This document shows positions 33,383-64,000 of a DNA stretch of 64,000 nt, piece after piece. The first letter of the stretch is position 1, and the number at the start of each line of letters is the position of its first letter. The translations under genes and the position numbers were made by a program. Below the pieces are notes generated by a model that was not told where the DNA came from, did not search any database, and worked only from the letters and a program-made list of their open reading frames with translations. The stretch is taken from positions 14,180 through 78,179 of the forward strand of contig CASDXH010000001.1 in assembly GCA_949285105.1 (NCBI GenBank), in the 5' to 3' direction. Origin of the DNA: an uncultured Mycoplasma sp. (GTDB lineage Bacteria; Bacillota_I; Bacilli_A; Mycoplasmatales; Mycoplasmoidaceae).

Positions 33383-33925
33383 TTATTTTAAATATTGGAA
33401 GCCGCTTGGACCTTTTTTCATATTGAAGTCTTCAAGTTTTTTTGGTTTGCTATATCTAAATGATTTTTTAGAAATAAGAGCATGTGCTTCTTTTTTTCCT
33501 TCATAGTAATCATCAAACTCTTTTTTAGTAAGTACTGAATTTTTACCAAATCTTGTTCAAGATGTTGATAGAGCATGAATATCTATCTTCTCTAAGTCAA
33601 ATTCACCAACAACTGCTTGAATTGGTGCAGTTGCATAAATAAGAACTCTTTCAACTTTATTAACTGGTGTAACCTTATAGAAAAGAACATTAGTTTCAGC
33701 TTCATCTAATAATTTATTAGCGTGTTTTGGAGAAGCTGAAATCATGATAATTGATGTCTCTTCAACTTTAACATTCTTTTCAGATGGTTTACTTTCAACA
33801 ACTTTTAATTGTTGTTGTTCTCTTTTCAATGCTTCTGGATCAACTACTTTTACAGGCTTTTCTTCTATAGGTTTTTGAATTGGTTTTTGAACTAGTTTTT
33901 TAGGTTCAGGTTTTTTAGCAGGCAT
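33383..33925 (-). repeat. copy 1 of the duplicated linker plus ASCH-like coding module (S3 tail)
   Basis: Homologous at DNA and protein level to 34602-35156. Both copies end with the same ...[21 protein letters not shown]. Confidence 0.85.
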
Positions 33926-34582
33926 TTCTCTTTTTTGAACTTTTTTATCAAAGATTTCACCACGGTTAATTCAAACCTTAACACCAATTAAACCATAAGT
34001 TGTATGAGCTTCTTCTAAAGCATAATCAATATCTGCTCTTAAAGTTGTTAGAGGAACAATACCTTCTGAATATCCTTCCTCTCTAGCCATTTCAACCCCA
34101 CCAAGTCTACCAGACACGTGAGTTTTAATCCCTTTTGCTCCATTCATTAAAACTTTTTTAATAGCAATTTTTTGAGCATTTCTAAAAGAGATTCTGTTTT
34201 CAATTGCATCAGCAATTTCTCTTGCAATAATTCTTGCTGATAAAGCTGGTTTTTCCAAAGCTAAAACATTAACATTAACTTTAACATCTCTACCAACAAT
34301 TAGATTTACATCTTTTTTAACAACTTTTAAAGTTGCCATATCTTTACCAAGAATAATTCCTGGTTGAGAACAATGAATAAATAGATCTATTTTTTTCTGT
34401 TGTCTTTCAATTTCAATGTTAGCAATTTGCGCAGCTTTGAATTTTTTAATTAAATGGTTTCTGATCTTATCATCTTCAACTAATCACTTAGCTGTTTGTT
34501 TTCCATCTAAAGCGATTCATCTTGATTGTCAGTTTTTGTTAATCCCGATTCTTAATCCATTTGGATTTACTTTTTGTCCCAT
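33383..34582 (-). CDS. rpsC: 30S ribosomal protein S3 fused to a C-terminal Lys/Pro/Glu linker and an ASCH/PUA-like domain
   Basis: ATG at 34582 after GAGAGGA ([29 protein letters not shown]...). In frame through TGA codons with 33971-34339 and 33557-33925, down to TAA at 33383 (all gaps checked). 399 aa, against about 215-235 aa for a usual S3. Confidence 0.9.
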
Positions 34583-53450: not shown

Positions 53451-56400
53451 TTATCTAAAGTTGTGTTTTCTTTTTTTGAATTCTTCATCAAGTCTTCTAT
53501 CAAGTTTCTTAGCAATTTTTCTTCTATCTTTAATGTTTTGGATGTATCCAAGAGTTAAGATAGGGATTAATAGAACAACTGTAGGAATAACTACTGATAG
53601 AACAACTATATCTCATCTAGTACCTTCATTTGTTGGAACAAACACTCTCATTCCAGTATATGTAATATTACTACTTGTAGTTTTACCAGAGAATGGGTCT
53701 TGAATAGTAATTGATACTAATAATGTTCCAGTAGCATCATCTGGTCCTAAAGTAATTTCAACTGGGTTATTGTTATTGTTGTTGCTTATATTATACAAGC
53801 TTGCAACATCATTCACTGTAACTTCTGAAGGAAGTTTGCTTTTTATAACAGCAGCTTCTGCTGAACTATCTTGCATAAATGTAATAGTTGTTTCAGCTGT
53901 ACTTGTATTTCTAAATCCACTATATGGCGTTGGTGGAGAAATAGTTTTAGTTACACCATTATCATTTATAGTGAATGCAACATTTAAAGTACCAGCAACA
54001 TCATCAGCAATTAAAGTTACTGAAGATATATCACTATTTGCAATATCTAAGCTATTTGTAACATTAGCAAAATATAATAGTGCTGATTTCTTTTGAGGAT
54101 CATCAGTATTTAACATAAATCTAGCAGTTAAAAGTTCTTTTGCTCTTGAAGGAACATTTGCATTAGAGAATGCACTATTACTTCCATCAGAAGTTGAGAT
54201 TTCATTGAAAGATTTAAATCCAACAATGTTAACAGGATTTTTACTTGTTTTGAAACCGCCATAGATTCTTGTGAATGTTTTTGTTGGGTAAACAGTAGTA
54301 GTTTTAGAATTTGTATTTTCAATATAGTTTTTGAATGAAACACTTACCTCAAGAGTACCACTTGAACGTGACGGAGTTAAAGTAACTGTTGCTTTGTCTT
54401 TAGTAGCGTTGTTGCTACCATAGTTTAAAACGCCAAGGGTCTCTAATTGGTTTTGAGTTACATCTGTTGCAAACATATTAGATGCACCACTAATTGTTTC
54501 TCCAAAACTAAATGTGTCAGCTAGTTGACCAGTTAAACTAGATCCACTAAATCCACTATAAGTAATTTGAATAGTCTTATTGTTAAAGCCACTAATATTT
54601 GCTCCAGATACATCAATAGAAATATCCAATGTACCTAATGTATCATTACCATTGGCTTTTACTACTTGAAAGTTTTGTCTTATGTAATCATTAAAGAACG
54701 AAGAGAAATCTGCAAAGTAAGATAATAAATCAATTTTTGATTCAGCAACATCACCATTTAATATACTAGCTATCGTTGAAGGTTTTTGTCCACGAATAGT
54801 AGTTGTATCTCTACTTGAAGTATCACTATTTAAAGTTGTATTTAAAGCTTGTTCATTAGGTTTGAAAGAGAAGAATATTGGTCTATTTGCACTTGCATTT
54901 TTTAAAAAGAAACTAGGAGTAGTAAATACAAATCTAACGTTTTCTTGGGTTCCAATTTGAGGAACAGTTAGATCAACTAGTATCGTACCATCTGCATCAT
55001 TTGGTGTAAGTTGAACATTATCTTCAGTGGCTTTTATTAAATCATCATTTTGCTCATTGTTAAATGCAGAACCATAGATTATAAAATCATCAAGAATTTC
55101 TTTTTTAGAAACAGAAGAAGCAACTTTATCTGAATATTTAACACTTAAGTTTTCATATTTTGTAGAAGTTTTATCATAGTTAGTATCTACTACTTTGACA
55201 CTACCTTGATCTCCATATTTATCAACTCTAAAGAAAGGAACAAGTTCGCTACCTAAAGTACCCGAGAAAGTTCAATTTTCACGCTTAGTATATGTTTCAC
55301 CTTCTTTAGTTCAAGCAATTGGAATAGTAACACTTATATCCATAGAACCATTTTGATCATGTGGAGTAAATGATACTATAGGGTTAGTAATGTTTGTAGT
55401 TTGAATTAAATACTTTTTAACTTCATCAGCTGTTATTTCACTAGGTTTTTTATTTCTAATATATGTTGGTACTTCAAAATTTAATATACCGTCTTGTCCA
55501 TCTTCTTGTCTTTCAGCAAACGTAACAGAAGTTTCAGCATTGTTAAAAGTATATTGTTGTTTACCAATAACAATTTCTTTTGTATCTGTTGAATTAATAC
55601 TTCCGTCAATATTTACTTGTCTAAGTTTTTGTTTGAATGTTAATTCAATAGTATAAATTCTTTGGGCTTTTTGACTCGTTAATGTACTGGCTTGTGGATA
55701 TTCAATAACAATATCAGGGTTAGTAGTAATACGTGGATCAATAAAGTTTATGTTTAAGAAATCTCTATAAGCAGTAGATGATTTTAAGTAAGTTTCAAAC
55801 GAACTAGTGTATTGCCCATCAGCATTAAGCACTTCTTGATATAAAACAGATTGGGAAACTTCACTATTTGATTTAATAGAAACAGAAGCTGGAAGCTCTC
55901 TGTTTGCTGAAGAAGAAAGTTTATCTCATTGACCAATTAATGTACTACCTAGGAATTGAGCAAAAGTCCCATCTTCCATTTGAGCAAATCAACTTGGATT
56001 AGTTCTTCTTGTTACTAAGTTATATATTTTTCCTAATTTAATAGTAGAAGTTTCAAAATCATATAATAACTTAGGGTTTTTCTTACTTGCATCTAATTGA
56101 ACTACTCTATTTTGTTCATCTAGTAATACATAACCATCAATTGCATCTTCATTTGCTTTATATAATTTTTGAATTGAATATAGTTTGCTATTTGAATATA
56201 AATAATCAAATAGATCAATGTTTCTTTCAGCTAAATTAAATGCATTAGATAGATTTAATGAAAGTGACCCTATTTTTGAAGGATTTGGTGAAATTGATTC
56301 ACTATTCTTTTTAAATGTGTAGAAAAGTTCATAAGATGTACTTGAGTTTTGGATTATATTAATTCCAGAAAGTTTTTTATCAGCTAAGAATTGAGGGTTA

Positions 56401-57569
56401 TTTGTATCATTTAATTTAAATGTTGTTGCATTGTTTTTATCATTAACATTTATAGTTTGACTACCAGTGTTTACTCCATCAATTTTTATAATAGATAAAA
56501 ATTTATCTTTAGTTTCTGTACTGTATTCCTCTGCTTGATAAGTTAAATATACAGTAGCACCATCTCTGACTGTAATAATTGGTTTGTACTTTTTATTTGA
56601 AGCAAATGCTTGACCACCAAGAACAGTTGAATCTATTGTTATTGTTTTAGTAACTGTTGGTTGAACTTGCGGATTAGAAAAATCAGTTTGACTCAAACTA
56701 ACAAAACTCATTGATGCATTGGTTGTTGTTGCAATTCCTCCAGTGTTATTAGAATTTATATCAGGCACATTCATTATTTGCATAGTGTGAGTAGAAGAAG
56801 ATTCAAGAACCATAAAGTTATAATCTTGTGTTCCACCTGATGGAGCATCTAAAACTTTTACAAATTCATATGAACCACCCTTCATCTCTTCCTGACCAGT
56901 TAGAGTTTGATTTTCTCATTGAATTCTAAATAAATAAAATTTAGAATCATTCCCTTTTGTTAACACAAATAGAGATTTACCAGCACCATTACCACCAGGA
57001 GAATAAAGTAATGATTTAATAGTTAAAGAATTAAGAGATGTAGTAGATCCTGTTCCTGTACCACCGCTATTGGTTTTAGCAGCACTAAATAAATCACTTG
57101 TTTTTACAACTCAATCAATTGAACCAGCAGCTGATGCCAATCCACCACTACTTCCAGTATTAAACGTATTAACTAAATTAAACTTAGTAATTTCATCTAA
57201 TGTTAGAGCTGCTTGACCACCAGTGCCACCAGAAGTAGAACTATATTTTGTACTTGAAGTAATTGTTGCATATGCATTATAGTCATAATCATATACAGTG
57301 TTTTGTTGAGGAATATTTGAATTATTAGTAATAATATCATTCAAAGGAACAATATTAGTTGTTTTATTTGTATTTGGATTTTTAGTTAGTGCCTTTTCTG
57401 TTACACCAGATCTTGAAACATTCGTTTGTGAGTTAAGAGATGTTTGATATGAAAAAGAATCAACAGAATTATTGTTGATCAAACTTGCAGAAACAACTGA
57501 AACAACACCAGTTGTTACAAGTGATAGTGTCGAAATTTTAAATAATCTATTTTTTAAATTCTTTTTCAT
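53451..57569 (-). CDS. very large modular surface protein (1372 aa): N-terminal signal peptide, repeated modules, C-terminal TM anchor
   Basis: Fragments 57111-57569, 55989-56885, 55311-55832 and 53613-54629 share one frame. All gaps checked: only TGA. N-terminus MKKNLKNRLFKISTLSLVTTGVVSVVSA. C-terminus WDIVVLSVVIPTVVLLIPILTLGYIQNIKDRRKIAKK... Recurrent (D/N)xxxGTLxVxxxI ... GF(K/R) modules. Confidence 0.85.
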
Positions 57570-57587: not shown

Positions 57588-60182
57588 CTAAAATTTATTT
57601 TTAATCTTGTTTGTCTTAACTCTATTAAATATAGTCTTACCTAGATATCCACCCAGTCCTAATACTACCAATCCACCTAATATAGCACTTAAAATAACTG
57701 TTAGATCAACAGGCGCTTTATATGAGTTTCTATCTTCTATACTACCTACAGGGAAACCTCTAAGTACAGTAGAGAATTTATTATTAGCCATTGGGATATC
57801 TTGATTAAATTCATCAATAGTAACATATACAGTTAATGTACCAGTATCTGAGTTTTTAACTATTTGTACATTTTGATTTGTAAGATTCATATCTTTAAAG
57901 AAATCTATTTTCTTTAAGTATTGGTTTATTACATCATCAACAGTAATTGATTCAAGTTCTTTTTGTGAAAGAGTTGCATCAACTTCTGAGTTATTTATTC
58001 ATCCAAATTCTTGGAATTGTTCGTTTGTAGCCTTAAACCCAGTAAAAATTCTTGTTTGTATATTTCCTGAATTAACTGCTTTTGCAGTAGCATCATTAAG
58101 AAAAGTAGTTGCTGATCTTTTCTTTACAGTAGTAGTGTTTGATTGAGCTTTAACAATCAAACTACCTGTAGAGTTATCAGAAAAATACGATAATGTAGCA
58201 TTTGCAGGAACTCCGTTCGTGAATGCTGTATTTAAACTATCGTTTGTATATAATAGGTCAACAATTTCACTTGGAGAAAAATCTGCTATAGTTTTGCTTT
58301 GATCATTTGGACTAGTTTTAATGATTGCATTTATATCATTAGCAACTGTCGTGTTGTCTTTTCAGTTAACTGAAACTGAACTATCGATTGATGGAAATTC
58401 AAAAGTTTGAATAATTTGTTTACCATCAACTTTATTTCCACTAGACATATATGATTCTCCATTTCAAGAATCAAATGTTAATGTCATTTTTACATTTTCA
58501 GTAGGACCTGTTGCTCTTTGCCCATTATCATTTACATATTCAAATTGAACTTGTCTATCTTTAGATAAAGCATCGTTTGTGCCATTAACAAATAAGTTAG
58601 ATAAAGATTTTAAATAAGTATTGTTTGTTTTGTTGGCTTCATATAAATCCATTAAGTCCTTTGATGAAGTAAATGCATTTACTTCATTAGGGGCTTTAGC
58701 TGACAATATTAATTGTTTTCCAGCATCTGGATTTACTTTAAATGACCCAGCAGGGAATGTTTGAGATAAAACAGCATCTTTAATAGTCTTACCAGAATAA
58801 ACATCATAGTAGTCATAATGATAAGTGAATATTGCACTACCATCTTTATCATTTGGAGTTACATCAATACTTTTTATATCTGAATCTTTTCTATATTCTT
58901 TTGGTAAGATTTTGTTATCAGTACTATTATCATTAAATTTTCTTACGTCCTTACCAAAATAAGATAATTTAATTAAACTATCCGAAACTTGCGGTTCTCT
59001 TCATTCATTATTATATAAGAAATTTAATAATGAATTACCATTTAGACTTAATTCTTTTAGTTCACTAGGCATTAAGTTAGATAATTTGCTTTCATCATTT
59101 AATAAATATTTAGTAAACGGATTATTAGTACCAGTTTTCGTTATTGTGGCATTTTTTATATTATCAATATTTCCATTGTCTAAGAAAACATTAGTATTTT
59201 GAATTTCACCATTCTTAGAATAGAATCCTCTAAATACTTTTTTAATTTCTATTCACTTAGTTTGAGTATCAGTTTGGTCTTGTCCTTCTATTGCTCCAGA
59301 AGGAAAACTATCACCTATTCAATCTGTTTTTTCTGTATTGTTAAACTTGATTGAAACTTCAAGTAGACCAAATTTATCTCAATTTGTAAAGTTTTCACTA
59401 GAAGATGCATCTTGAGTGAAATTTTTTATTGTAATGTCATAATCATTTGGAACAATATGATTATCATCTTGCTTTATAAAATTGGAAAAAATTGAAGCAG
59501 GCGTTATATTTCCACTATTTGCTTCTAATCTATCATCAAATGTTTTTTTAATGTATGCACCAATAATGTCATCATCATTTCAAGCAAAGTTATATTTTTC
59601 TATAACTGCTAAATCTTTAAAGTTTCCACCAATCGTTCCTCATGCAGATGGTGTTATTGGGACTTTTGAATAATCTTCATAAGTAGATCATGTATAGTCA
59701 ATATCATTGGTACTTGTCGCACCAGGTTTTTTTATTTTAACTTCAACAATAGGTGTGTTTGGATCTAAAACGCCATTTGAATATTTTTTAGCTATTTGTG
59801 TTATTGTAAATCTAACTCCACCACTTCTTCTATCATCATTTGAAATTGGTAGAATTTGAACATTGTAATCAACAACGCCAACAAGGTTTTCCCCGCTTGT
59901 AGTATCATAAGGAATTAATAAAGATTTTATTTGTTCATTTGTTACATTATCAACACGTTGTTTTCCTCATCACTCATTTTTTTGAGCAACATCTTGCTCA
60001 ACAAATTTGAAACCAGCTGTGGCTTCTTGGCCGTCTTGGATTGCTCTAGTTTTGGGATTAGAAATATCATAGCTTAAGTTAGATTGAGTCAAGCTATTAT
60101 TGATAGTTGCAACTGAGGGAATAGTAGCAATTACTGTTAACGAACTTAATCCGATAGTTAATATTTTTAATGTCTTTTTCAT
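57588..60182 (-). CDS. large modular surface protein (864 aa): N-terminal signal peptide, C-terminal TM anchor; paralogous module type
   Basis: Fragments 59970-60182, 58464-58706 and 57588-57890 are in one frame. Both long gaps checked codon by codon: only TGA. N-terminus MKKTLKILTIGLSSLTVIATIPSVA. C-terminus LTVILSAILGGLVVLGLGGYLGKTIFNRVKTNK. Modules ...SDTGTLTVYVTI...LRGFP and ...DNSTGSLIVKA...FTGFK. Confidence 0.85.
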
Positions 60183-60308: not shown

Positions 60309-61476
60309 CTCCATAACTGACATGTGAAGTGCAACAATTTAATGTTGCATTAAACTCTCGACCTTAAAATATAAGTAGAGAGTTTTTTGTTTTAAATATT
60401 TTCTTGGTACAATTGATAAGCTGTTTTATAACCAAACATTTTTCTTGGCATATTATTTAATTTTCATTCAAGAGTTTTAATTTTATCTTCACTTACTAAA
60501 CTAAAATAAGTTCCTTTCTTATATCATCTTCTAACTACACCATTTATGTTTTGTTAGTACTTCTTTGGAATGAAGAATAAAGTTGACAATAATAAACTTT
60601 AAAGTTGAATTGTTTTGCTTTTATACCCATCATTTGAAACTCTAATCCTTTATCAACAGTTATGCTCTTGATTGGTAATTTTCATCGCTAATAATGGTGT
60701 ACATTTTAGCCAGCATTGACCTAGTTTTTTTACCTTTTATTTTTCTAATAATTGCCAACATTGTTTTTCTTTTAACTAATATTAATAAGTGATAGTATCC
60801 ACTCTGTCTTCTACTAACTATTAGATTGGTTTCTCAGTGCCCAAACTCTTTTCTGTTATTTAACTTTTCTGGTCTTAAACTATATGGAATATAGTATTTT
60901 CCATCAATTTTAGAAAATATTCTTATTTTTCTTATTTTTTCTTTAACATATTTTCTTCTTAAACAATCCCTTCTTTGTATCTTTCAAATATTGCTATTTA
61001 TTCATCTAAAAACTTGTTTAGTACTTGAAAATTTAACTAATGGATAATTTTTCTTTATTCAAAAAATTGTAGCTAGAACACCATGGGATTTTGGGTTAAA
61101 TTTTTGAATAAAAATATCAGTAAAGTTTTTATATTTCAACATAGAAAATAAATGACAATTAGATTTTCTTCTAATGTATTTTTTATGAGCAGATGATGAA
61201 TAATAAATTCCAGTTGAAGATGTATTTCTCTTCAACTCTCTAGATATTGTTGATCTATTATTTATTTAAGATTTTTAATATTTTATTCATTGAATATTTT
61301 TCTTTATTTCAAAGTAAATAAATTAAGTGTTTTCTTCTTTTGTTAAATGTTTATAAGTGTTCATAGGTACTCCTAATACTTATTATCTTTTTTATTGGTG
61401 AACACTTACAAATAAAATAAATGAAGTGCACACTCTTTTTGAGTGTTGCACTTCACATGTCAATCCAGCAAAATTC
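60309..61476 (-). mobile_element. decayed IS30-family insertion sequence
   Basis: 18-bp perfect terminal inverted repeat, gacatgtgaagtgcaaca (60319-60336) / tgttgcacttcacatgtc (61444-61461). Flanked by the 13-bp direct repeat gttttcaccaatt (60296-60308 and 61477-61489). The interior encodes an interrupted IS30-type transposase. Confidence 0.8.
60392..61364 (-). pseudogene. IS30-family transposase, disrupted by frameshifts and stop codons
   Basis: MNTYKHLTKEENT*, then a shifted frame LIYLLWNKEKYSMNKILKILNK, then NNRSTISRELKRNTSSTGIYYSSSAHKKY...GHWETNLIVSRRQSGYYHLLILV...SRA*, then a shifted frame ITVDKGLEFQ...YYCQLYSSFQRSTNKT*... and the C-terminal ...KQLINCTKKIF. This order matches an HTH, DDE, C-terminal IS30 layout. 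Confidence 0.75.
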
Positions 61477-61495: not shown

Positions 61496-62416
61496 TTATA
61501 TTTCTTCTTCGCTAATATCTATATCTTTGAAGTAGATATCAGTATCAATTTCATAGTCTTCAAATGGAGATATATTGATTTGTTGTCTTTGTCTTTCAAT
61601 CTCTAATGGTTCATCTATGATTAAATTGTTTTCATAGAATTTTTGATAAGTTTCAGTTGATGCTTTATATAGATATTTCATTAAGATTGAAATATATTTA
61701 GGTGATGTTGATTTTTCATTATCAATCATTACCCCATCAACGTGATTTGAATTAACTATTTCTTCAAAGTCCTCACTTAAGAATTCTCCACCAAATAAGA
61801 TAGGAATATTATTTCCAATATAGAAACTATATTCTTCTCTAATAAAGTTTCTTATAGTAGTTATAGCACCAATAACAAATTCAGGAGTAGCACGAACTCC
61901 AACTTCACCTATGAATGTTGGTTTATATACTATAGTTAAATGATTAGCAAATAGTGTTGGATCAATACTATCCAAGTATTTTCTTAATTTTAGTTTTAGT
62001 GATTCTTTAGTTGAATCTTTTAAAAGATCTGTTCTATCTTCACTTAAAACTAAAATTACATTCATTTCATTTTCTAAAAAAGTTTTAACCTTTTTATTAA
62101 TTAAAATATCACTTTCACCAAAAGCTTTACAAACTTCTGGATGACCTACCATAACATTTCTAATATTGTAATCTTTCAGTTCAATTCAAGAAGTATCTCC
62201 TGTATGGTTACCAACTGTAACAATTCCACAGTTTTGAGCAGCAACACCCACTTGTTTATTTCTACTTAGATTCATGGCAGGCAAAATACCAAGTAATGAA
62301 GGAACAACAATTAAATCTACATCTTCATTTGTAGAAACATTGTCAAAGAATTTCTTCATTGAAACATAATCAGCATTAAGTTTTCAATTAGCTATAAGTT
62401 TTTTTCTTCTATCCAT
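61496..62416 (-). CDS. triosephosphate-isomerase-like protein with substituted catalytic Glu and an acidic C-terminal tail (probable pseudoenzyme)
   Basis: ATG at 62416 after AGGAG (MDRRKKLIANWKLNADY...) is in frame through TGA with 61496-62152. TIM landmarks: IANWKLN, AAQN, VGHPE. The YEPxWAIGTG block reads VYKPTFIGEVG and GGASL reads IDNEKS. 306 aa. Confidence 0.7.
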
Positions 62417-62430
62417 AAAATTATTTCTCC

Positions 62431-64000
62431 TTAATTACTATTTAATGAATCTTTTTCTTTTTTAGTTCATAAAGAATTTAATTCAGAATATTTTTCAAGT
62501 TTTTGTTCTGCTTCTCTAATCTTCTTGTTTACTTTAACAGCATTAGCTGCATCATTACCAACAAATTCCATGAAGTTTTTTCTATCTTTTAATTCTTCAA
62601 TTCTCTTCTCATTTCATAAAGAAGTTAAATCATATTCACCTTTAGTACTAATAGTTCCAGAAACATCTGGAATAACCAATACTGTACCATCATCTAAAAC
62701 AACTTCTTCTTCACCAAGATTATTTATTTTTAGATCTTCTTCATCATCTTCAACATCTAAAGTTGGGTAATCTAAGAAACCATCATATTTAACTTTTTCA
62801 ATCATTTGAAGATTTAGTTGTTCTTGCTTATCTAAGTTAATTCCCTCTAAGAATTCACCATCATATGCAATACCAGCAATTGCATTTTCATAACGTTTAT
62901 TATATTTAAGATCATATTTAGATATATTTTTCTTAACTTCTCTCTTCTTGTCTTGAACAATTATTTTTATAGATCTAAATCATTTAGAGTAGTTGTAAAC
63001 AATTTTTCTTGTTAATGGATTTAATTTAAAAGCTTCAGCTTCAAATAGATCATCATAAGATACATCTATTTGAGATTTCATTTCAGCATATTTTCTATTA
63101 GCTTGTTCTAATTCATTCTTAGATTCTTTTACAATGTATAAAGTTTCTTTAAATATTTCATAGTAAGCTATTACTTTTTTAAAGTCTGCTTCATTAAAAG
63201 GACTATCTGGTGATACTTCTTCATCTTCCCCTGGTACTTTAGGAGCAAAGTATTTATTATATACATCATCTACATCAGCTTCTATATTTTCATAGAATTC
63301 AGCTATTTTAAATGCATCATTTGTGTTTAAAATATCAACTTCTGATTTAAATAATCTAGTAAAGAATGAGTATGGAAGAATTTCATCATCCAAAATTTTA
63401 TTAATTTTCTTAATACTCATCTTAGGCATTTTTCTAGAAATAATAGGAGTCAATTCATCTTTTACTTTATTAACTCAATTTGTATTTCTTTTAATTTGAG
63501 TTCTTCATAAGAAACTATCAAAGAATCTATTTGATAGTTTAGTCATCTTTGATAGTTTAATTTCGTCATCAAATAATGTCATGATTGTTCTATTGTAGTT
63601 GTATTTAAATCCTACAAAATCAATGTCATTATATTTAATATATTCTAAAAGAACATCGAACAGTTTCTTTCTGGATTCTGGTGTTGTAAAAAGCTTCTCA
63701 TGCGTTTTAATAATTTCTTTTAAAACAATGTACTGACGTTTTTGATTTACATATTCATCAGTCTTATTAAAGTCATTATATAAAGATAAATTATTTTCTT
63801 CGAATTGTTCAATTAAAGGAGAAGCTAAATTATCTTTCCAAACATTATAGTGATCTTCTAAGCTTTTTTGGATTTCATTTTTGCTAAAGTTTTTAGTAAT
63901 TAATGATCTATAATAAGTTTTTTCATCTAGATTTTCTACACCCAAAGTAACAAGTAATGTTGAATATAATCCAAAAAAGTCACTAGTTAACTTTTTAGAA
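62431..64000 (-). CDS. large uncharacterised acidic protein, C-terminal part (gene continues beyond the right edge)
   Basis: Fragments 63505-63945, 62980-63453 and 62614-62805 share one frame. The frame is still open at 64000. TAA at 62431-62433. No motif I recognise. Confidence 0.6.

What the first reader, a model, noticed from the sequence alone, without database searches (positions are those of the whole stretch)
61496..62416. Triosephosphate-isomerase look-alike with the catalytic Glu replaced and an acidic tail
- **TIM-like alignment.** The 306-aa product aligns with TIM through IANWKLN (Asn/Lys), AAQN, GNHTGDTS and VGHPE (His).
- **Lost catalytic and binding motifs.** The AYEPxWAIGTG block containing the catalytic base reads IVYKPTFIGEVG, with Glu changed to Lys. 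The phosphate-gripping YGGS and GGASL loops read FGGEF and IDNEKS.
- **Extra tail.** It carries a roughly 60-residue acidic C-terminal extension (...EIERQRQQINISPFEDYEIDTDIYFKDIDISEEEI).
- **Context.** It lies 15 nt downstream of a large uncharacterised acidic protein (62431 to beyond 64000) and looks co-transcribed with it.
- **Interpretation.** This points to a TIM-barrel pseudoenzyme recruited to a non-glycolytic role rather than the housekeeping tpiA.
Basis: partly seen in the sequence, partly recalled or inferred. Interest (0 to 1): 0.65.

Follow-up and report, generated by a model that had tools for sequence, protein, structure and literature searches.

The report
Dead TIM paralogue in Malacoplasma
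This gene encodes a conserved, almost certainly inactive copy of the glycolytic enzyme triosephosphate isomerase that sits in one operon with an equally inactive copy of phosphoglycerate mutase and two large surface proteins, which suggests that Malacoplasma (Mycoplasma iowae/penetrans/muris) has turned two metabolic enzymes into structural parts of an unknown cell-envelope machine.

Summary
The ORF must be read with genetic code 4 (TGA = Trp); it then gives 306 aa. The window is a Malacoplasma iowae-like genome.

**The TIM look-alike**
- It is a clear TIM-family barrel (Pfam E 5.5e-33; model TM 0.85-0.88 to solved TIMs).
- In all 20 orthologues the catalytic Glu is Lys (18) or Gln (2).
- The phosphate-gripping positions of loops 6, 7 and 8 are acidic residues.
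- A 56-residue acidic tail (net charge -11) with a conserved C-terminal motif is appended.

**The real enzyme exists elsewhere.** Canonical tpiA-gpmI-eno operons occur in the same M. iowae, M. penetrans and M. muris genomes. The paralogue is under strong purifying selection (dN/dS 0.04).

**New finding.** The "uncharacterised acidic" upstream gene is a ~1000-aa protein. Its N-terminal half is a cofactor-independent phosphoglycerate mutase fold with every metal ligand lost. It is fused to a helical and acidic C-terminal half.

**Operon.** Both dead enzymes lie directly downstream of two single-pass surface proteins with basic cytoplasmic tails, and a terminator follows the TIM-like gene. This holds in every Malacoplasma locus examined.

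**Best reading.** The two proteins are non-catalytic cytoplasmic partners of that surface complex, possibly part of the uncharacterised Malacoplasma attachment and gliding apparatus. That function is inferred, not shown.

The parts
61496..62416 (-). TIM-like pseudoenzyme gene, 306 aa under genetic code 4
   Evidence: Code-4 translation. Pfam TIM E 5.5e-33. 96% identical to M. iowae P0001/P0002.
61667..62416 (-). TIM-barrel domain (residues 1-250). Asn10, Lys12 and His92 are kept. Lys165 replaces the catalytic Glu (codon 61924-61922). Acidic residues sit at the phosphate-binding positions of loops 6, 7 and 8.
   Evidence: PDB alignments. Residue table over 20 orthologues. AF2 barrel with pLDDT about 85-93. 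Foldseek TM 0.85-0.88.
61496..61666 (-). C-terminal extension (residues 251-306, net charge -11). Two or three short helices are followed by a disordered acidic tail with the conserved motif F-[DE]-x-Y-[DE]-[IV]-x(3,4)-Y-F-x(2)-[IV]-x-[IV]-x-[DE]-E-x-[IMF] at the C-terminus.
   Evidence: (pLDDT below 50 for residues 267-306).
62384..62386 (-). TGA codon read as Trp11, inside the NWK motif
   Evidence: Sequence. It aligns to the conserved Trp of all TIMs.
62186..62188 (-). TGA codon read as Trp77
   Evidence: Sequence. Conserved Trp in all orthologues.
62417..62430 (-). 14-nt intergenic gap. An AAGGAG ribosome-binding site overlaps the upstream stop codon.
   Evidence: Sequence.
62431..64000 (-). 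C-terminal 522 residues (helical plus acidic half) of a ~993-aa degenerate iPGM fusion protein. The N-terminal iPGM-like half lies beyond the window end.
   Evidence: 91% identical to the C-terminal part of the M. iowae 993-aa protein. The full-length protein hits Pfam iPGM_N and Metalloenzyme. Its fold matches iPGM at TM 0.82. Metal ligands are lost in 28/28 family members.
61408..61456 (-). Intrinsic-terminator-like hairpin plus U-tract, starting 39 nt after the TIM-like stop codon; end of the operon
   Evidence: RNA fold -27.7 kcal/mol, z = -4.7. Equivalent hairpin plus U-run in M. iowae L005, M. penetrans and M. muris.
60660..61265 (-). IS30-like transposase remnant, inserted between the operon end and the next surface-protein pair
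   Evidence: Code-4 ORF. At the same place M. iowae L005 has ORFs with HTH_38 and rve.
57588..60182 (-). Surface protein, 864 aa, with a signal peptide, a C-terminal TM helix and a basic tail. It is a paralogue of the ~855-914-aa protein encoded upstream of the pseudoenzyme pair in other genomes.
53451..57569 (-). Surface protein, 1372 aa, with a signal peptide and a weak Lipoprotein_17 match. It is a paralogue of the ~1340-aa protein encoded immediately upstream of the iPGM-like gene in other genomes.

Best explanation
**What it is.** The gene encodes a catalytically dead paralogue of triosephosphate isomerase. It keeps the TIM barrel and probably the dimer-forming loop 3, but it cannot bind or isomerise triose phosphates.
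- The catalytic base Glu165 is Lys or Gln.
- The backbone and side-chain positions that grip the substrate phosphate (Gly171, Ser211, loop-8 Gly-Ser) are Asp, Glu or Asn.
- These acidic side chains would repel phosphate. They may pair with the retained Lys12 and the new Lys165 to fill the old pocket.

**What it is encoded with.**
- It is translated from the same mRNA as a ~1000-aa protein. That protein's N-terminal half is an equally dead cofactor-independent phosphoglycerate mutase, and its C-terminal half is a long helical and acidic region.
- In every Malacoplasma locus examined the pair follows directly on two large single-pass surface proteins that have short basic cytoplasmic tails.

**Proposed mechanism (inferred).** The two pseudoenzymes are the cytoplasmic, non-catalytic subunits of a Malacoplasma-specific envelope complex. 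Their folded enzyme-derived cores act as rigid building blocks. Their conserved acidic C-terminal regions dock onto partners, most plausibly the basic tails of the co-encoded surface proteins. This would make the four-gene module a candidate component of the attachment and gliding apparatus of this clade, whose parts are unknown.

**Shown versus inferred.**
- Shown: homology, fold, residue losses, the presence of genuine tpiA/gpmI elsewhere, purifying selection, conserved synteny and operon signals.
- Inferred: lack of activity, physical association, tail docking, cellular role.
For: **TIM family and fold.**

**Catalytic and phosphate-site substitutions.** They are conserved in 20/20 orthologues, while Asn, Lys and His are kept. 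Scores are far below every NCBIfam TpiA equivalog cut-off, for example 90 against 293 bits.

**Canonical operon in the same genomes.** tpiA-gpmI-eno is present in M. muris, M. iowae and M. penetrans.

**Selection.**
- TIM-like dN/dS is 0.040, against 0.059 for cysS.
- Orthologue identity iowae-muris is 63% for the pseudo-TIM and 60% for the canonical TpiA.

**Family limits.** The family is monophyletic and confined to Malacoplasma. Among 1.84 billion representatives only one scores below 1e-30, and the NJ bootstrap is 100.

**The partner is a dead iPGM.**
- In the 28-member family the ligands read H66 to D (27), D403 to A (26), H407 to K/R/Y, D444 to A/P/S, H445 to Y/F, H462 to N/K/I/V and R261 to D (28).
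- The fold is confirmed at TM 0.82.

**Synteny.** The order [~800-957 aa surface][~1281-1354 aa surface][iPGM-like][TIM-like] holds in the 11 fetched loci (7 distinct gene arrangements), from M. iowae, M. muris, M. penetrans and uncultured Malacoplasma. The gaps between the genes are tens of bases at most (8-43 nt in M. iowae and M. penetrans).

**Operon signals.**
- No convincing terminator lies inside the module.
- A hairpin plus U-tract follows directly after the TIM-like gene in three species.

**Charges.** The smaller surface proteins have a signal peptide, a C-terminal TM helix and tails of +5 to +13. The TIM-like tail is -11.

**Precedent.** The M. mobile gliding motor incorporates phosphoglycerate kinase. 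That genome also holds a PGK homologue without catalytic residues (PMC11864180).

**Open question it bears on.** The Malacoplasma attachment-organelle proteins and adhesins are reported as unknown, with no homologues of the M. pneumoniae set (PMC12398969; PMC9282661).
Against: - No activity assay, localisation or interaction data exist for either protein.
- The link to the surface proteins rests on gene order alone.
- Asn10, Lys12 and His92 are invariant. That could mean residual or altered ligand binding rather than pure structure.
- The AF2 model gives no information on the tail (pLDDT below 50), and I could not model complexes.
- The surface proteins have no detectable relation to known mycoplasma adhesins. 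Their own role in adhesion or gliding is therefore also a guess.
- The key proteomic paper on the M. penetrans Triton-insoluble fraction could not be read.
Confidence: 0.5

Rival explanations
1. **Regulator or anchor of the real enzymes.** TIM is an obligate dimer. The dead paralogue could heterodimerise with the canonical TpiA, and the iPGM-like protein could bind GpmI or another glycolytic partner. This would either tether lower glycolysis to a membrane site for local ATP supply or damp its activity.
For: - The loop-3 dimer-interface segment (GNHTGxxSW) is among the best conserved parts of the pseudo-TIM.
- The pseudo pair copies exactly the two enzymes that are neighbours in the canonical operon.
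- In M. mobile an apparently active PGK is built into the gliding motor (PMC11864180).
- From general knowledge, pseudoenzymes often act on their active paralogues.
Against: - Identity to the same-genome TpiA is only about 27%, so interface compatibility is doubtful.
- The iPGM-like domain is about 22% identical to the canonical GpmI.
- From general knowledge, bacterial iPGM is monomeric, so paralogue pairing has no obvious basis there.
- No complex modelling was possible.
Confidence: 0.15
2. **Retooled enzyme.** The barrel catalyses a different reaction on a non-phosphorylated, possibly cationic or neutral, substrate. It would use the retained His92 and Lys12 and the new Lys165 at the end of strand beta-6. 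From general knowledge, this is where several class I aldolase-type barrels carry their Schiff-base lysine.
For: - Asn10, Lys12, His92 and Glu/Asp94 are invariant in 20/20 sequences, although the original chemistry is lost.
- Lys165 is conserved in 18/20.
- Selection is very strong.
Against: - Two orthologues have Gln at position 165. An essential catalytic lysine should not tolerate this.
- The co-transcribed partner has lost all metal ligands as well. That pattern fits joint loss of catalysis better than two simultaneous new chemistries.
- Both proteins acquired long non-enzymatic extensions.
- The operon has no transporter or other metabolic gene.
Confidence: 0.1
3. **Moonlighting surface protein.** Like several mycoplasma glycolytic enzymes reported on the cell surface, the TIM-like protein would be exported and act directly as an adhesin or host-factor binder.
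For: - M. gallisepticum TpiA, enolase and pyruvate kinase are reported as surface adhesins (review PMC7954426).
- The gene neighbours encode surface proteins.
Against: - The protein has no signal peptide, lipobox or TM segment (sequence).
- The strongly acidic disordered tail and the pairing with a 1000-aa helical protein suggest a cytoplasmic assembly.
- Between M. iowae lineages it is highly conserved (96% identity, dN/dS 0.04). The true surface proteins next to it diverge quickly (77% identity, dN/dS 0.16-0.20).
Confidence: 0.05
4. **Housekeeping tpiA or decaying pseudogene.** It is either the organism's working TIM with unusual residues or a duplicate on its way to loss.
For: - Public annotation calls it triose-phosphate isomerase.
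- It is adjacent to a gene annotated as phosphoglycerate mutase.
Against: - A canonical tpiA with all motifs is present in each genome.
- The reading frame is intact in 20 lineages with dN/dS 0.04.
- The substitutions are the same across the genus rather than random.
Confidence: 0.03

Closest known systems
Canonical triosephosphate isomerase TpiA (EC 5.3.1.1; Pfam PF00121), including the TpiA of the same Malacoplasma genomes (P0220, P0227, P0212)
   Same: - Same superfamily and the same (beta/alpha)8 barrel.
- Asn, Lys and His of the active site are kept.
- Loop 3 and the YGG of loop 7 are recognisable.
- It is encoded next to an iPGM-family gene.
   Different: - Only 22-31% identical.
- Catalytic Glu is replaced by Lys or Gln.
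- Trp168 is Phe.
- Gly171, Ser211 and the loop-8 Gly-Ser are Asp, Glu or Asn.
- A 56-residue acidic tail is added.
- Gene order is reversed: iPGM-like then TIM-like, against tpiA then gpmI then eno.
- It is not in the glycolytic operon.
- It scores far below the TpiA equivalog cut-offs.
Glycolytic-enzyme paralogues in the Mycoplasma mobile gliding machinery: PGK MMOB4530 in the twin motor, and the PGK homologue MMOB4490 that lacks catalytic residues (Toyonaga et al. 2025, PMC11864180)
   Same: - A wall-less Mollicute has duplicated a lower-glycolysis enzyme.
- One copy is built into, or degenerated beside, a surface-motility machine.
- This is a precedent for enzymes used as structural parts.
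   Different: - A different enzyme (PGK, not TIM or iPGM) and a different clade.
- In M. mobile the incorporated copy appears catalytically intact, and its association is shown by cryo-EM.
- Here both copies are dead, both carry extensions, and the association is only inferred from gene order.
Other diverged TIM-family paralogues, such as L-erythrulose-1-phosphate isomerase (the annotation given to hit P0016)
   Same: A second TIM-family gene exists in a genome beside the housekeeping tpiA.
   Different: - Those paralogues keep the catalytic Glu and the phosphate-binding loops (P0016 reads AYEPVWAIGEKG) and are enzymes.
- They have no acidic tail and no iPGM-like partner.
Cofactor-independent phosphoglycerate mutase GpmI (Pfam PF06415 plus PF01676), for the co-transcribed partner
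   Same: Two-domain iPGM fold, TM 0.82 to 1O98 and 1EJJ. Several substrate-side residues persist (D154, R185, K336).
   Different: - All Mn-binding residues are lost, and Arg261/264 are lost.
- About 22% identity.
- A ~490-residue helical and acidic C-terminal half is fused on.

Membership tests
Triosephosphate isomerase (TpiA, EC 5.3.1.1) | Homology to PF00121 and a (beta/alpha)8 TIM fold | tested here: met
   Pfam E 5.5e-33. AF2 plus Foldseek give TM 0.85-0.88 to solved TIMs.
Triosephosphate isomerase (TpiA, EC 5.3.1.1) | Catalytic base Glu165 in the AYEPxWAIGTG motif | tested here: not met
   Lys in 18 and Gln in 2 of 20 orthologues. Lys165 in the window protein.
Triosephosphate isomerase (TpiA, EC 5.3.1.1) | Electrophilic and binding residues Asn11, Lys13 and His95 | tested here: met
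   Invariant in 20/20.
Triosephosphate isomerase (TpiA, EC 5.3.1.1) | Phosphate-gripping loops 6, 7 and 8 (Gly171, Ser211, Gly232-Gly233 equivalents) | tested here: not met
   Gly171 is E/D/Q. Ser211 is E/D. The loop-8 Gly is D/E and the loop-8 Ser is D/N, in 20/20.
Triosephosphate isomerase (TpiA, EC 5.3.1.1) | Reaches the curated equivalog score of an NCBIfam TpiA model | tested here: not met
   The best TpiA-only model scores 90 bits against a cut-off of 293. TIGR00419 scores 59 against 130.6.
Triosephosphate isomerase (TpiA, EC 5.3.1.1) | Is the genome's glycolytic tpiA (sole copy, or in the glycolytic operon) | tested here: not met
   Canonical tpiA-gpmI-eno lies elsewhere in the same M. 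iowae, M. penetrans and M. muris chromosomes.
Triosephosphate isomerase (TpiA, EC 5.3.1.1) | Interconverts DHAP and GAP | not testable with these tools
   Needs a coupled enzyme assay on recombinant protein.
Pseudoenzyme (conserved non-catalytic homologue of an enzyme) | Loss of residues essential for the parental chemistry | tested here: met
   The partner iPGM-like protein shows the same.
Pseudoenzyme (conserved non-catalytic homologue of an enzyme) | Maintained by purifying selection, with an intact frame across lineages | tested here: met
   dN/dS 0.040. Twenty intact orthologues at 42-96% identity.
Pseudoenzyme (conserved non-catalytic homologue of an enzyme) | Experimentally inactive | not testable with these tools
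Mycoplasma attachment-organelle or gliding-machinery component | Encoded with surface adhesin-type or leg-type proteins | tested here: inconclusive
   The operon with two single-pass surface proteins is conserved. Those proteins have no detectable similarity to known adhesins.
Mycoplasma attachment-organelle or gliding-machinery component | Localises to the cell pole or the detergent-insoluble cytoskeleton, and its loss impairs adherence or gliding | not testable with these tools
   Needs microscopy, fractionation and genetics. The relevant proteomic paper was not available.

The most novel reading that the evidence does not exclude
The conserved four-gene module consists of two fast-evolving single-pass surface proteins plus a dead iPGM fusion and a dead TIM. 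It may be the core of the Malacoplasma attachment organelle and gliding machine, a third type of mycoplasma motility apparatus. In it, two duplicated and inactivated glycolytic enzymes would have become the cytoskeletal or force-transmitting elements that connect to the surface 'legs' through acidic-tail to basic-tail contacts.
Probability: 0.2. Interest if true: 0.85.

Novelty: new variant of a known kind. Interest (0 to 1): 0.62.

Why it matters
**Annotation.** Public annotation labels these proteins "triose-phosphate isomerase" and "phosphoglycerate mutase". That would mislead metabolic reconstructions of M. iowae, M. penetrans and M. muris, which would appear to have two copies of each enzyme.

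**Biology.**
- TIM is the textbook "perfect enzyme". A genus-wide TIM barrel under strong selection, with the catalytic base reversed in charge and the phosphate site filled with carboxylates, is a clean natural case of an enzyme fold reused for something else.
- It comes paired with a second dead glycolytic enzyme, copied from the same operon neighbourhood.

**A testable lead.** M. penetrans and M. iowae glide and adhere through a polar organelle whose components are unknown and unrelated to those of M. pneumoniae or M. mobile. This module gives four concrete, genus-specific candidate genes to test by knockout, tagging and fractionation.

Tried and rejected
1. **Table 11 reading.** It gives a truncated 218-aa ORF and was rejected in favour of code 4.

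2. **Looking for the canonical TpiA among AT-rich top hits of the representative search.** This returned unrelated organisms (Improbicoccus and unnamed MAGs) and was abandoned. A code-4-specific DNA pattern scan followed by a protein search with the M. muris TpiA succeeded.

3. **Origin of the duplicate.** The NJ tree places the pseudo-TIM clade among Mycoplasmoidaceae and Ureaplasma TIMs with 4-16% support, so the origin is unresolved. It is not specifically closest to its own genome's TpiA (27% identity).

4. **Literature.** Distelhorst 2017 (PMC5446615), Jurkovic 2012 (PMC3370623) and my guessed PMC id for the M. penetrans genome paper (Sasaki 2002; PMC137978) are not held. Other searches found no mention of these proteins.

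5. **Surface proteins against PDB sequences.** No hits. The C-terminal half of the iPGM-like protein has no Pfam family; only a sub-threshold Helicase_C_2 match appeared and was treated as noise.

6. **Consensus terminator scan.** It missed the post-gene hairpin because of a bulge. Direct folding found it.

7. **Housekeeping tpiA, decaying pseudogene and exported moonlighting adhesin.** All were considered and judged unlikely (see the rival explanations).
Full report
**1. The observation**

The window has 25-30% GC. Under table 11 many long reading frames are broken. Under genetic code 4 (TGA = Trp) they close into typical Mollicutes genes, including a ribosomal protein operon, adk, map, ldh, cysS and dnaE.

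The finding's ORF is listed by the table-11 tool as only 218 aa (61496-62152). Two in-frame TGA codons, at 62386-62384 and 62188-62186, sit at Trp positions that are conserved in every homologue. The code-4 product is 306 aa.

It is 96% identical to proteins of Malacoplasma (formerly Mycoplasma) iowae. The window therefore comes from M. iowae or a close relative. dS of about 0.5-0.8 against strain CP129197.1 shows it is a distinct lineage.

**2. It is a TIM-family barrel**

- Pfam PF00121 matches residues 7-234 at E 5.5e-33.
- Sequence search of the PDB returns only triosephosphate isomerases, down to E 1e-25.
- An AlphaFold2 model of the 96%-identical P0002 has mean pLDDT 78, with the barrel mostly 85-93. 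It superposes on solved TIMs at target-normalised TM 0.85-0.88.

**3. It is not a working TIM**

I aligned 20 orthologues with five canonical Malacoplasma TpiA sequences.

| Position | Canonical | 20 orthologues |
|---|---|---|
| Asn, Lys, His of the active site | kept | invariant, 20/20 |
| Catalytic Glu165 | Glu | Lys 18, Gln 2 |
| Trp168 | Trp | Phe 20 |
| Gly171 | Gly | Glu 18, Asp 1, Gln 1 |
| Ser211 | Ser | Glu 10, Asp 10 |
| Loop-8 Gly | Gly | Asp 16, Glu 4 |
| Loop-8 Ser | Ser | Asp 16, Asn 4 |
| Arg98-Arg99 of GHSERR | Arg-Arg | lost |

The phosphate-binding site has been systematically filled with carboxylates and the catalytic base has been reversed in charge. This is inference from established TIM enzymology, where Glu165 is the proton-abstracting base and loops 6 to 8 clamp the phosphate. 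Such a protein should neither bind nor isomerise triose phosphates.

The protein scores far below all NCBIfam TpiA equivalog cut-offs.

It extends 56 residues past the canonical C-terminus. The net charge of the extension is -11. AF2 predicts two or three short helices followed by disorder.

The last ~25 residues carry a motif conserved across the genus: F-D/E-x-Y-D/E-I/V ... Y-F ... I-x-I-x-E-E-x-I at the C-terminus.

**4. The real enzyme is elsewhere**

A DNA pattern for Y-E-P-x-W(TGA)-x-I-G-T-G was scanned over one genome per species. It hit the M. muris RIII-4 chromosome and a Malacoplasma MAG.

In M. muris the locus encodes a textbook operon:
- tpiA, 255 aa, with NWKM, GHSERR, AYEPVWAIGTG and YGGSV;
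- gpmI, 503 aa, with GNSEVGH, NPDMIGH and ADHGN;
- eno.

Searching with that TpiA found named canonical TpiA proteins in M. iowae (P0220, 253 aa) and M. penetrans (P0227, 250 aa).

Contig look-ups place tpiA-gpmI-eno in the same assemblies as the look-alike:

| Genome | Canonical operon | Look-alike locus |
|---|---|---|
| M. iowae CP129197.1 | 713953-724714 | 876791-897711 |
| M. penetrans BA000026.2 | 477025-487777 | 18477-41512 |

**5. It is maintained, not decaying**

Between the window and CP129197.1:

| Gene | Amino-acid identity | dN/dS |
|---|---|---|
| TIM-like | 96% | 0.040 |
| iPGM-like, C-terminal half | 91% | 0.063 |
| cysS | 91% | 0.059 |
| Neighbouring surface proteins | 77-78% | 0.16-0.20 |

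Across species the pseudo-TIM diverges about as slowly as the true enzyme. Iowae-muris identity is 63% for the pseudo-TIM and 60% for TpiA. Iowae-penetrans identity is 44% and 56%.

An exhaustive HMMER scan of 1.84 billion cluster representatives found only one other representative above the general TIM background (P0047, 305 aa). All other hits scored 106 bits or less.

In an NJ tree the family is monophyletic (bootstrap 100). It sits on a long stem whose attachment among Mollicutes TIMs is unresolved.

The duplication therefore predates the split of the M. penetrans, M. iowae and M. muris lineages. The family appears confined to Malacoplasma.

**6. The upstream gene is a second dead glycolytic enzyme**

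The "large acidic protein" that runs off the window end is the C-terminal 522 residues of a ~993-aa protein. Precomputed and fresh Pfam searches hit iPGM_N and Metalloenzyme in its N-terminal 505 residues. PDB iPGMs align end to end at E 1e-9.

I aligned 28 family members with the canonical M. muris GpmI.

| Canonical residue | Pseudo-family residue |
|---|---|
| His66 | Asp 27/28 |
| Asp403 | Ala 26/28 |
| His407 | Lys/Arg/Tyr |
| Asp444 | Ala/Pro/Ser |
| His445 | Tyr/Phe 28/28 |
| His462 | Asn/Lys/Ile/Val |
| Arg261 | Asp 28/28 |
| Arg264 | lost |

The position of the phosphoserine nucleophile is variable or ambiguous in the alignment.

The AF2 model (mean pLDDT 76) has four parts:
- an iPGM fold, TM 0.82 to 1O98/1EJJ;
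- an all-helical region at 511-846;
- a disordered acidic stretch at 846-930;
- a long terminal helix at 951-992.

The helical and acidic half has no Pfam family and no sequence match in the PDB.

The operon thus carries inactivated copies of exactly the two enzymes that are neighbours in the genuine operon. Their order is reversed and each has a C-terminal extension.

**7. Conserved genomic context**

In all 11 fetched loci (7 distinct gene arrangements) the pair is preceded on the same strand by two genes. These are M. iowae L005/L006, M. muris L001-L003, M. penetrans L009/L010 and the uncultured Malacoplasma loci L004, L007/L008 and L011.
- The first is a ~800-957-aa gene and the second a ~1281-1354-aa gene.
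- The gaps between the genes are tens of bases at most (8-43 nt in M. iowae and M. penetrans).

M. iowae, M. muris and some MAGs carry a second, paralogous copy of that gene pair just downstream of the TIM-like gene. In the window these are 57588-60182 and 53451-57569.

The smaller protein of each pair has an N-terminal signal sequence, one C-terminal transmembrane helix and a short basic cytoplasmic tail, with charge +5 to +13. The larger one has the same layout where I read it directly: in the M. iowae 1340-aa protein a C-terminal hydrophobic helix is followed by KNRIDVKKFSKKL.... The simple TM detector did not flag any of the larger proteins.

The larger protein matches Pfam Lipoprotein_17, weakly in most loci. 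Neither protein has a sequence relative in the PDB.

Operon signals:
- No convincing terminator lies within the four genes in M. iowae.
- Directly after the TIM-like stop codon there is a hairpin plus U-tract in the window (-27.7 kcal/mol, z = -4.7), in M. iowae L005, in M. penetrans and in M. muris.
- In the window, an IS30-like remnant (60660-61265) separates this terminator from the next surface-protein pair.

**8. Interpretation**

Shown:
- a genus-specific TIM-barrel paralogue under strong selection that lacks the catalytic base and the phosphate site;
- co-transcription signals with an iPGM paralogue that lacks its metal site;
- conserved linkage to two surface proteins.

Inferred:
- Both are non-catalytic.
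- They assemble on the cytoplasmic side with the co-encoded membrane proteins.
- The conserved acidic C-terminal motif of the TIM-like protein and the acidic stretch of the iPGM-like protein are the docking elements. The basic tails of the surface proteins are the obvious counterpart.

M. penetrans and M. iowae adhere and glide by a polar organelle. Its components and adhesins are described as unknown, with no homologues of the M. pneumoniae proteins (PMC12398969). The molecular basis of gliding has no obvious similarity among M. mobile, M. pneumoniae and M. penetrans (PMC9282661).

There is a precedent for glycolytic enzymes in such machines. The M. mobile twin motor incorporates phosphoglycerate kinase. 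That genome also has a PGK homologue without catalytic or binding residues (PMC11864180).

I therefore regard the four-gene module as a candidate part of the Malacoplasma apparatus. I give this specific reading only about 0.2-0.25 probability. The broader "structural partner of the co-encoded surface proteins" reading gets about 0.5. The bare "pseudoenzyme, not tpiA" claim gets about 0.9.

**9. Rivals**

- An anchor or regulator of the real TpiA and GpmI through paralogue pairing is possible, because loop 3 is conserved. It is weakened by 22-27% identity.
- A new catalytic activity using His92, Lys12 and Lys165 is weakened by Gln165 in two orthologues and by the parallel death of the partner.
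- An exported moonlighting adhesin is unlikely. There is no export signal, and the protein evolves slowly while the true surface proteins next to it evolve quickly.
- Housekeeping tpiA or a decaying pseudogene are contradicted by sections 4 and 5.

**10. Novelty and limits**

I found no paper describing these proteins. Databases name them as the active enzymes. Pseudoenzymes and enzyme recruitment are known concepts, so this is a new variant of a known kind rather than a new category.

Nothing here measures activity, localisation or binding. The most relevant proteomic study of the M. penetrans cytoskeletal fraction could not be consulted.

Noticed in passing
window 33383-34582 (-) and 34602-35621 (-): Ribosomal proteins S3 (399 aa) and L22 (339 aa), encoded side by side, each carry a ~190-residue C-terminal extension. 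It consists of a Lys/Pro/Glu-rich linker plus a ~115-aa globular domain ending in [19 protein letters not shown]. The extension is 69% identical between the two proteins (blastp 1e-88). It matches no Pfam family above cut-off. The same unknown domain appended to two neighbouring ribosomal proteins is unusual.
   Followed up: partly
window 53451-57569 (-) and 57588-60182 (-): The two large surface proteins downstream of the TIM-like gene are only 77-78% identical to their M. iowae CP129197.1 orthologues (dN/dS 0.16-0.20). The adjacent cytoplasmic genes are 91-96% identical (dN/dS 0.04-0.06). The pattern fits immune-driven or host-driven diversification of exposed proteins.
   Followed up: partly
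window 60660-61265 (-): An IS30-like transposase remnant is wedged between the terminator of the pseudoenzyme operon and the next surface-protein pair. It reads as a single 201-codon frame without an obvious start. M. iowae CP129197.1 has separate HTH_38 and rve ORFs at the same place. M. muris and M. penetrans have no insertion there.
   Followed up: partly
L131-L134 (M. iowae), upstream of the canonical tpiA: The genuine tpiA-gpmI-eno operon of M. iowae is preceded by a tandem array of ~495-511-aa MpPF1-family (PF07668) genes and an IS-related HTH_38 ORF. In strain CP129194.1 the gpmI call is truncated to 242 aa next to an MFS transporter and dnaA. This suggests a rearrangement or an assembly-origin artefact.
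   Followed up: no
P0017, P0018 (JGI metagenome proteins): Two unrelated metagenomic TIM-family proteins read CYMPIWSIGTG, with Met in place of the catalytic Glu, but keep the Gly-rich loop 6. Loss of the TIM catalytic base may therefore have occurred independently elsewhere.
   Followed up: no
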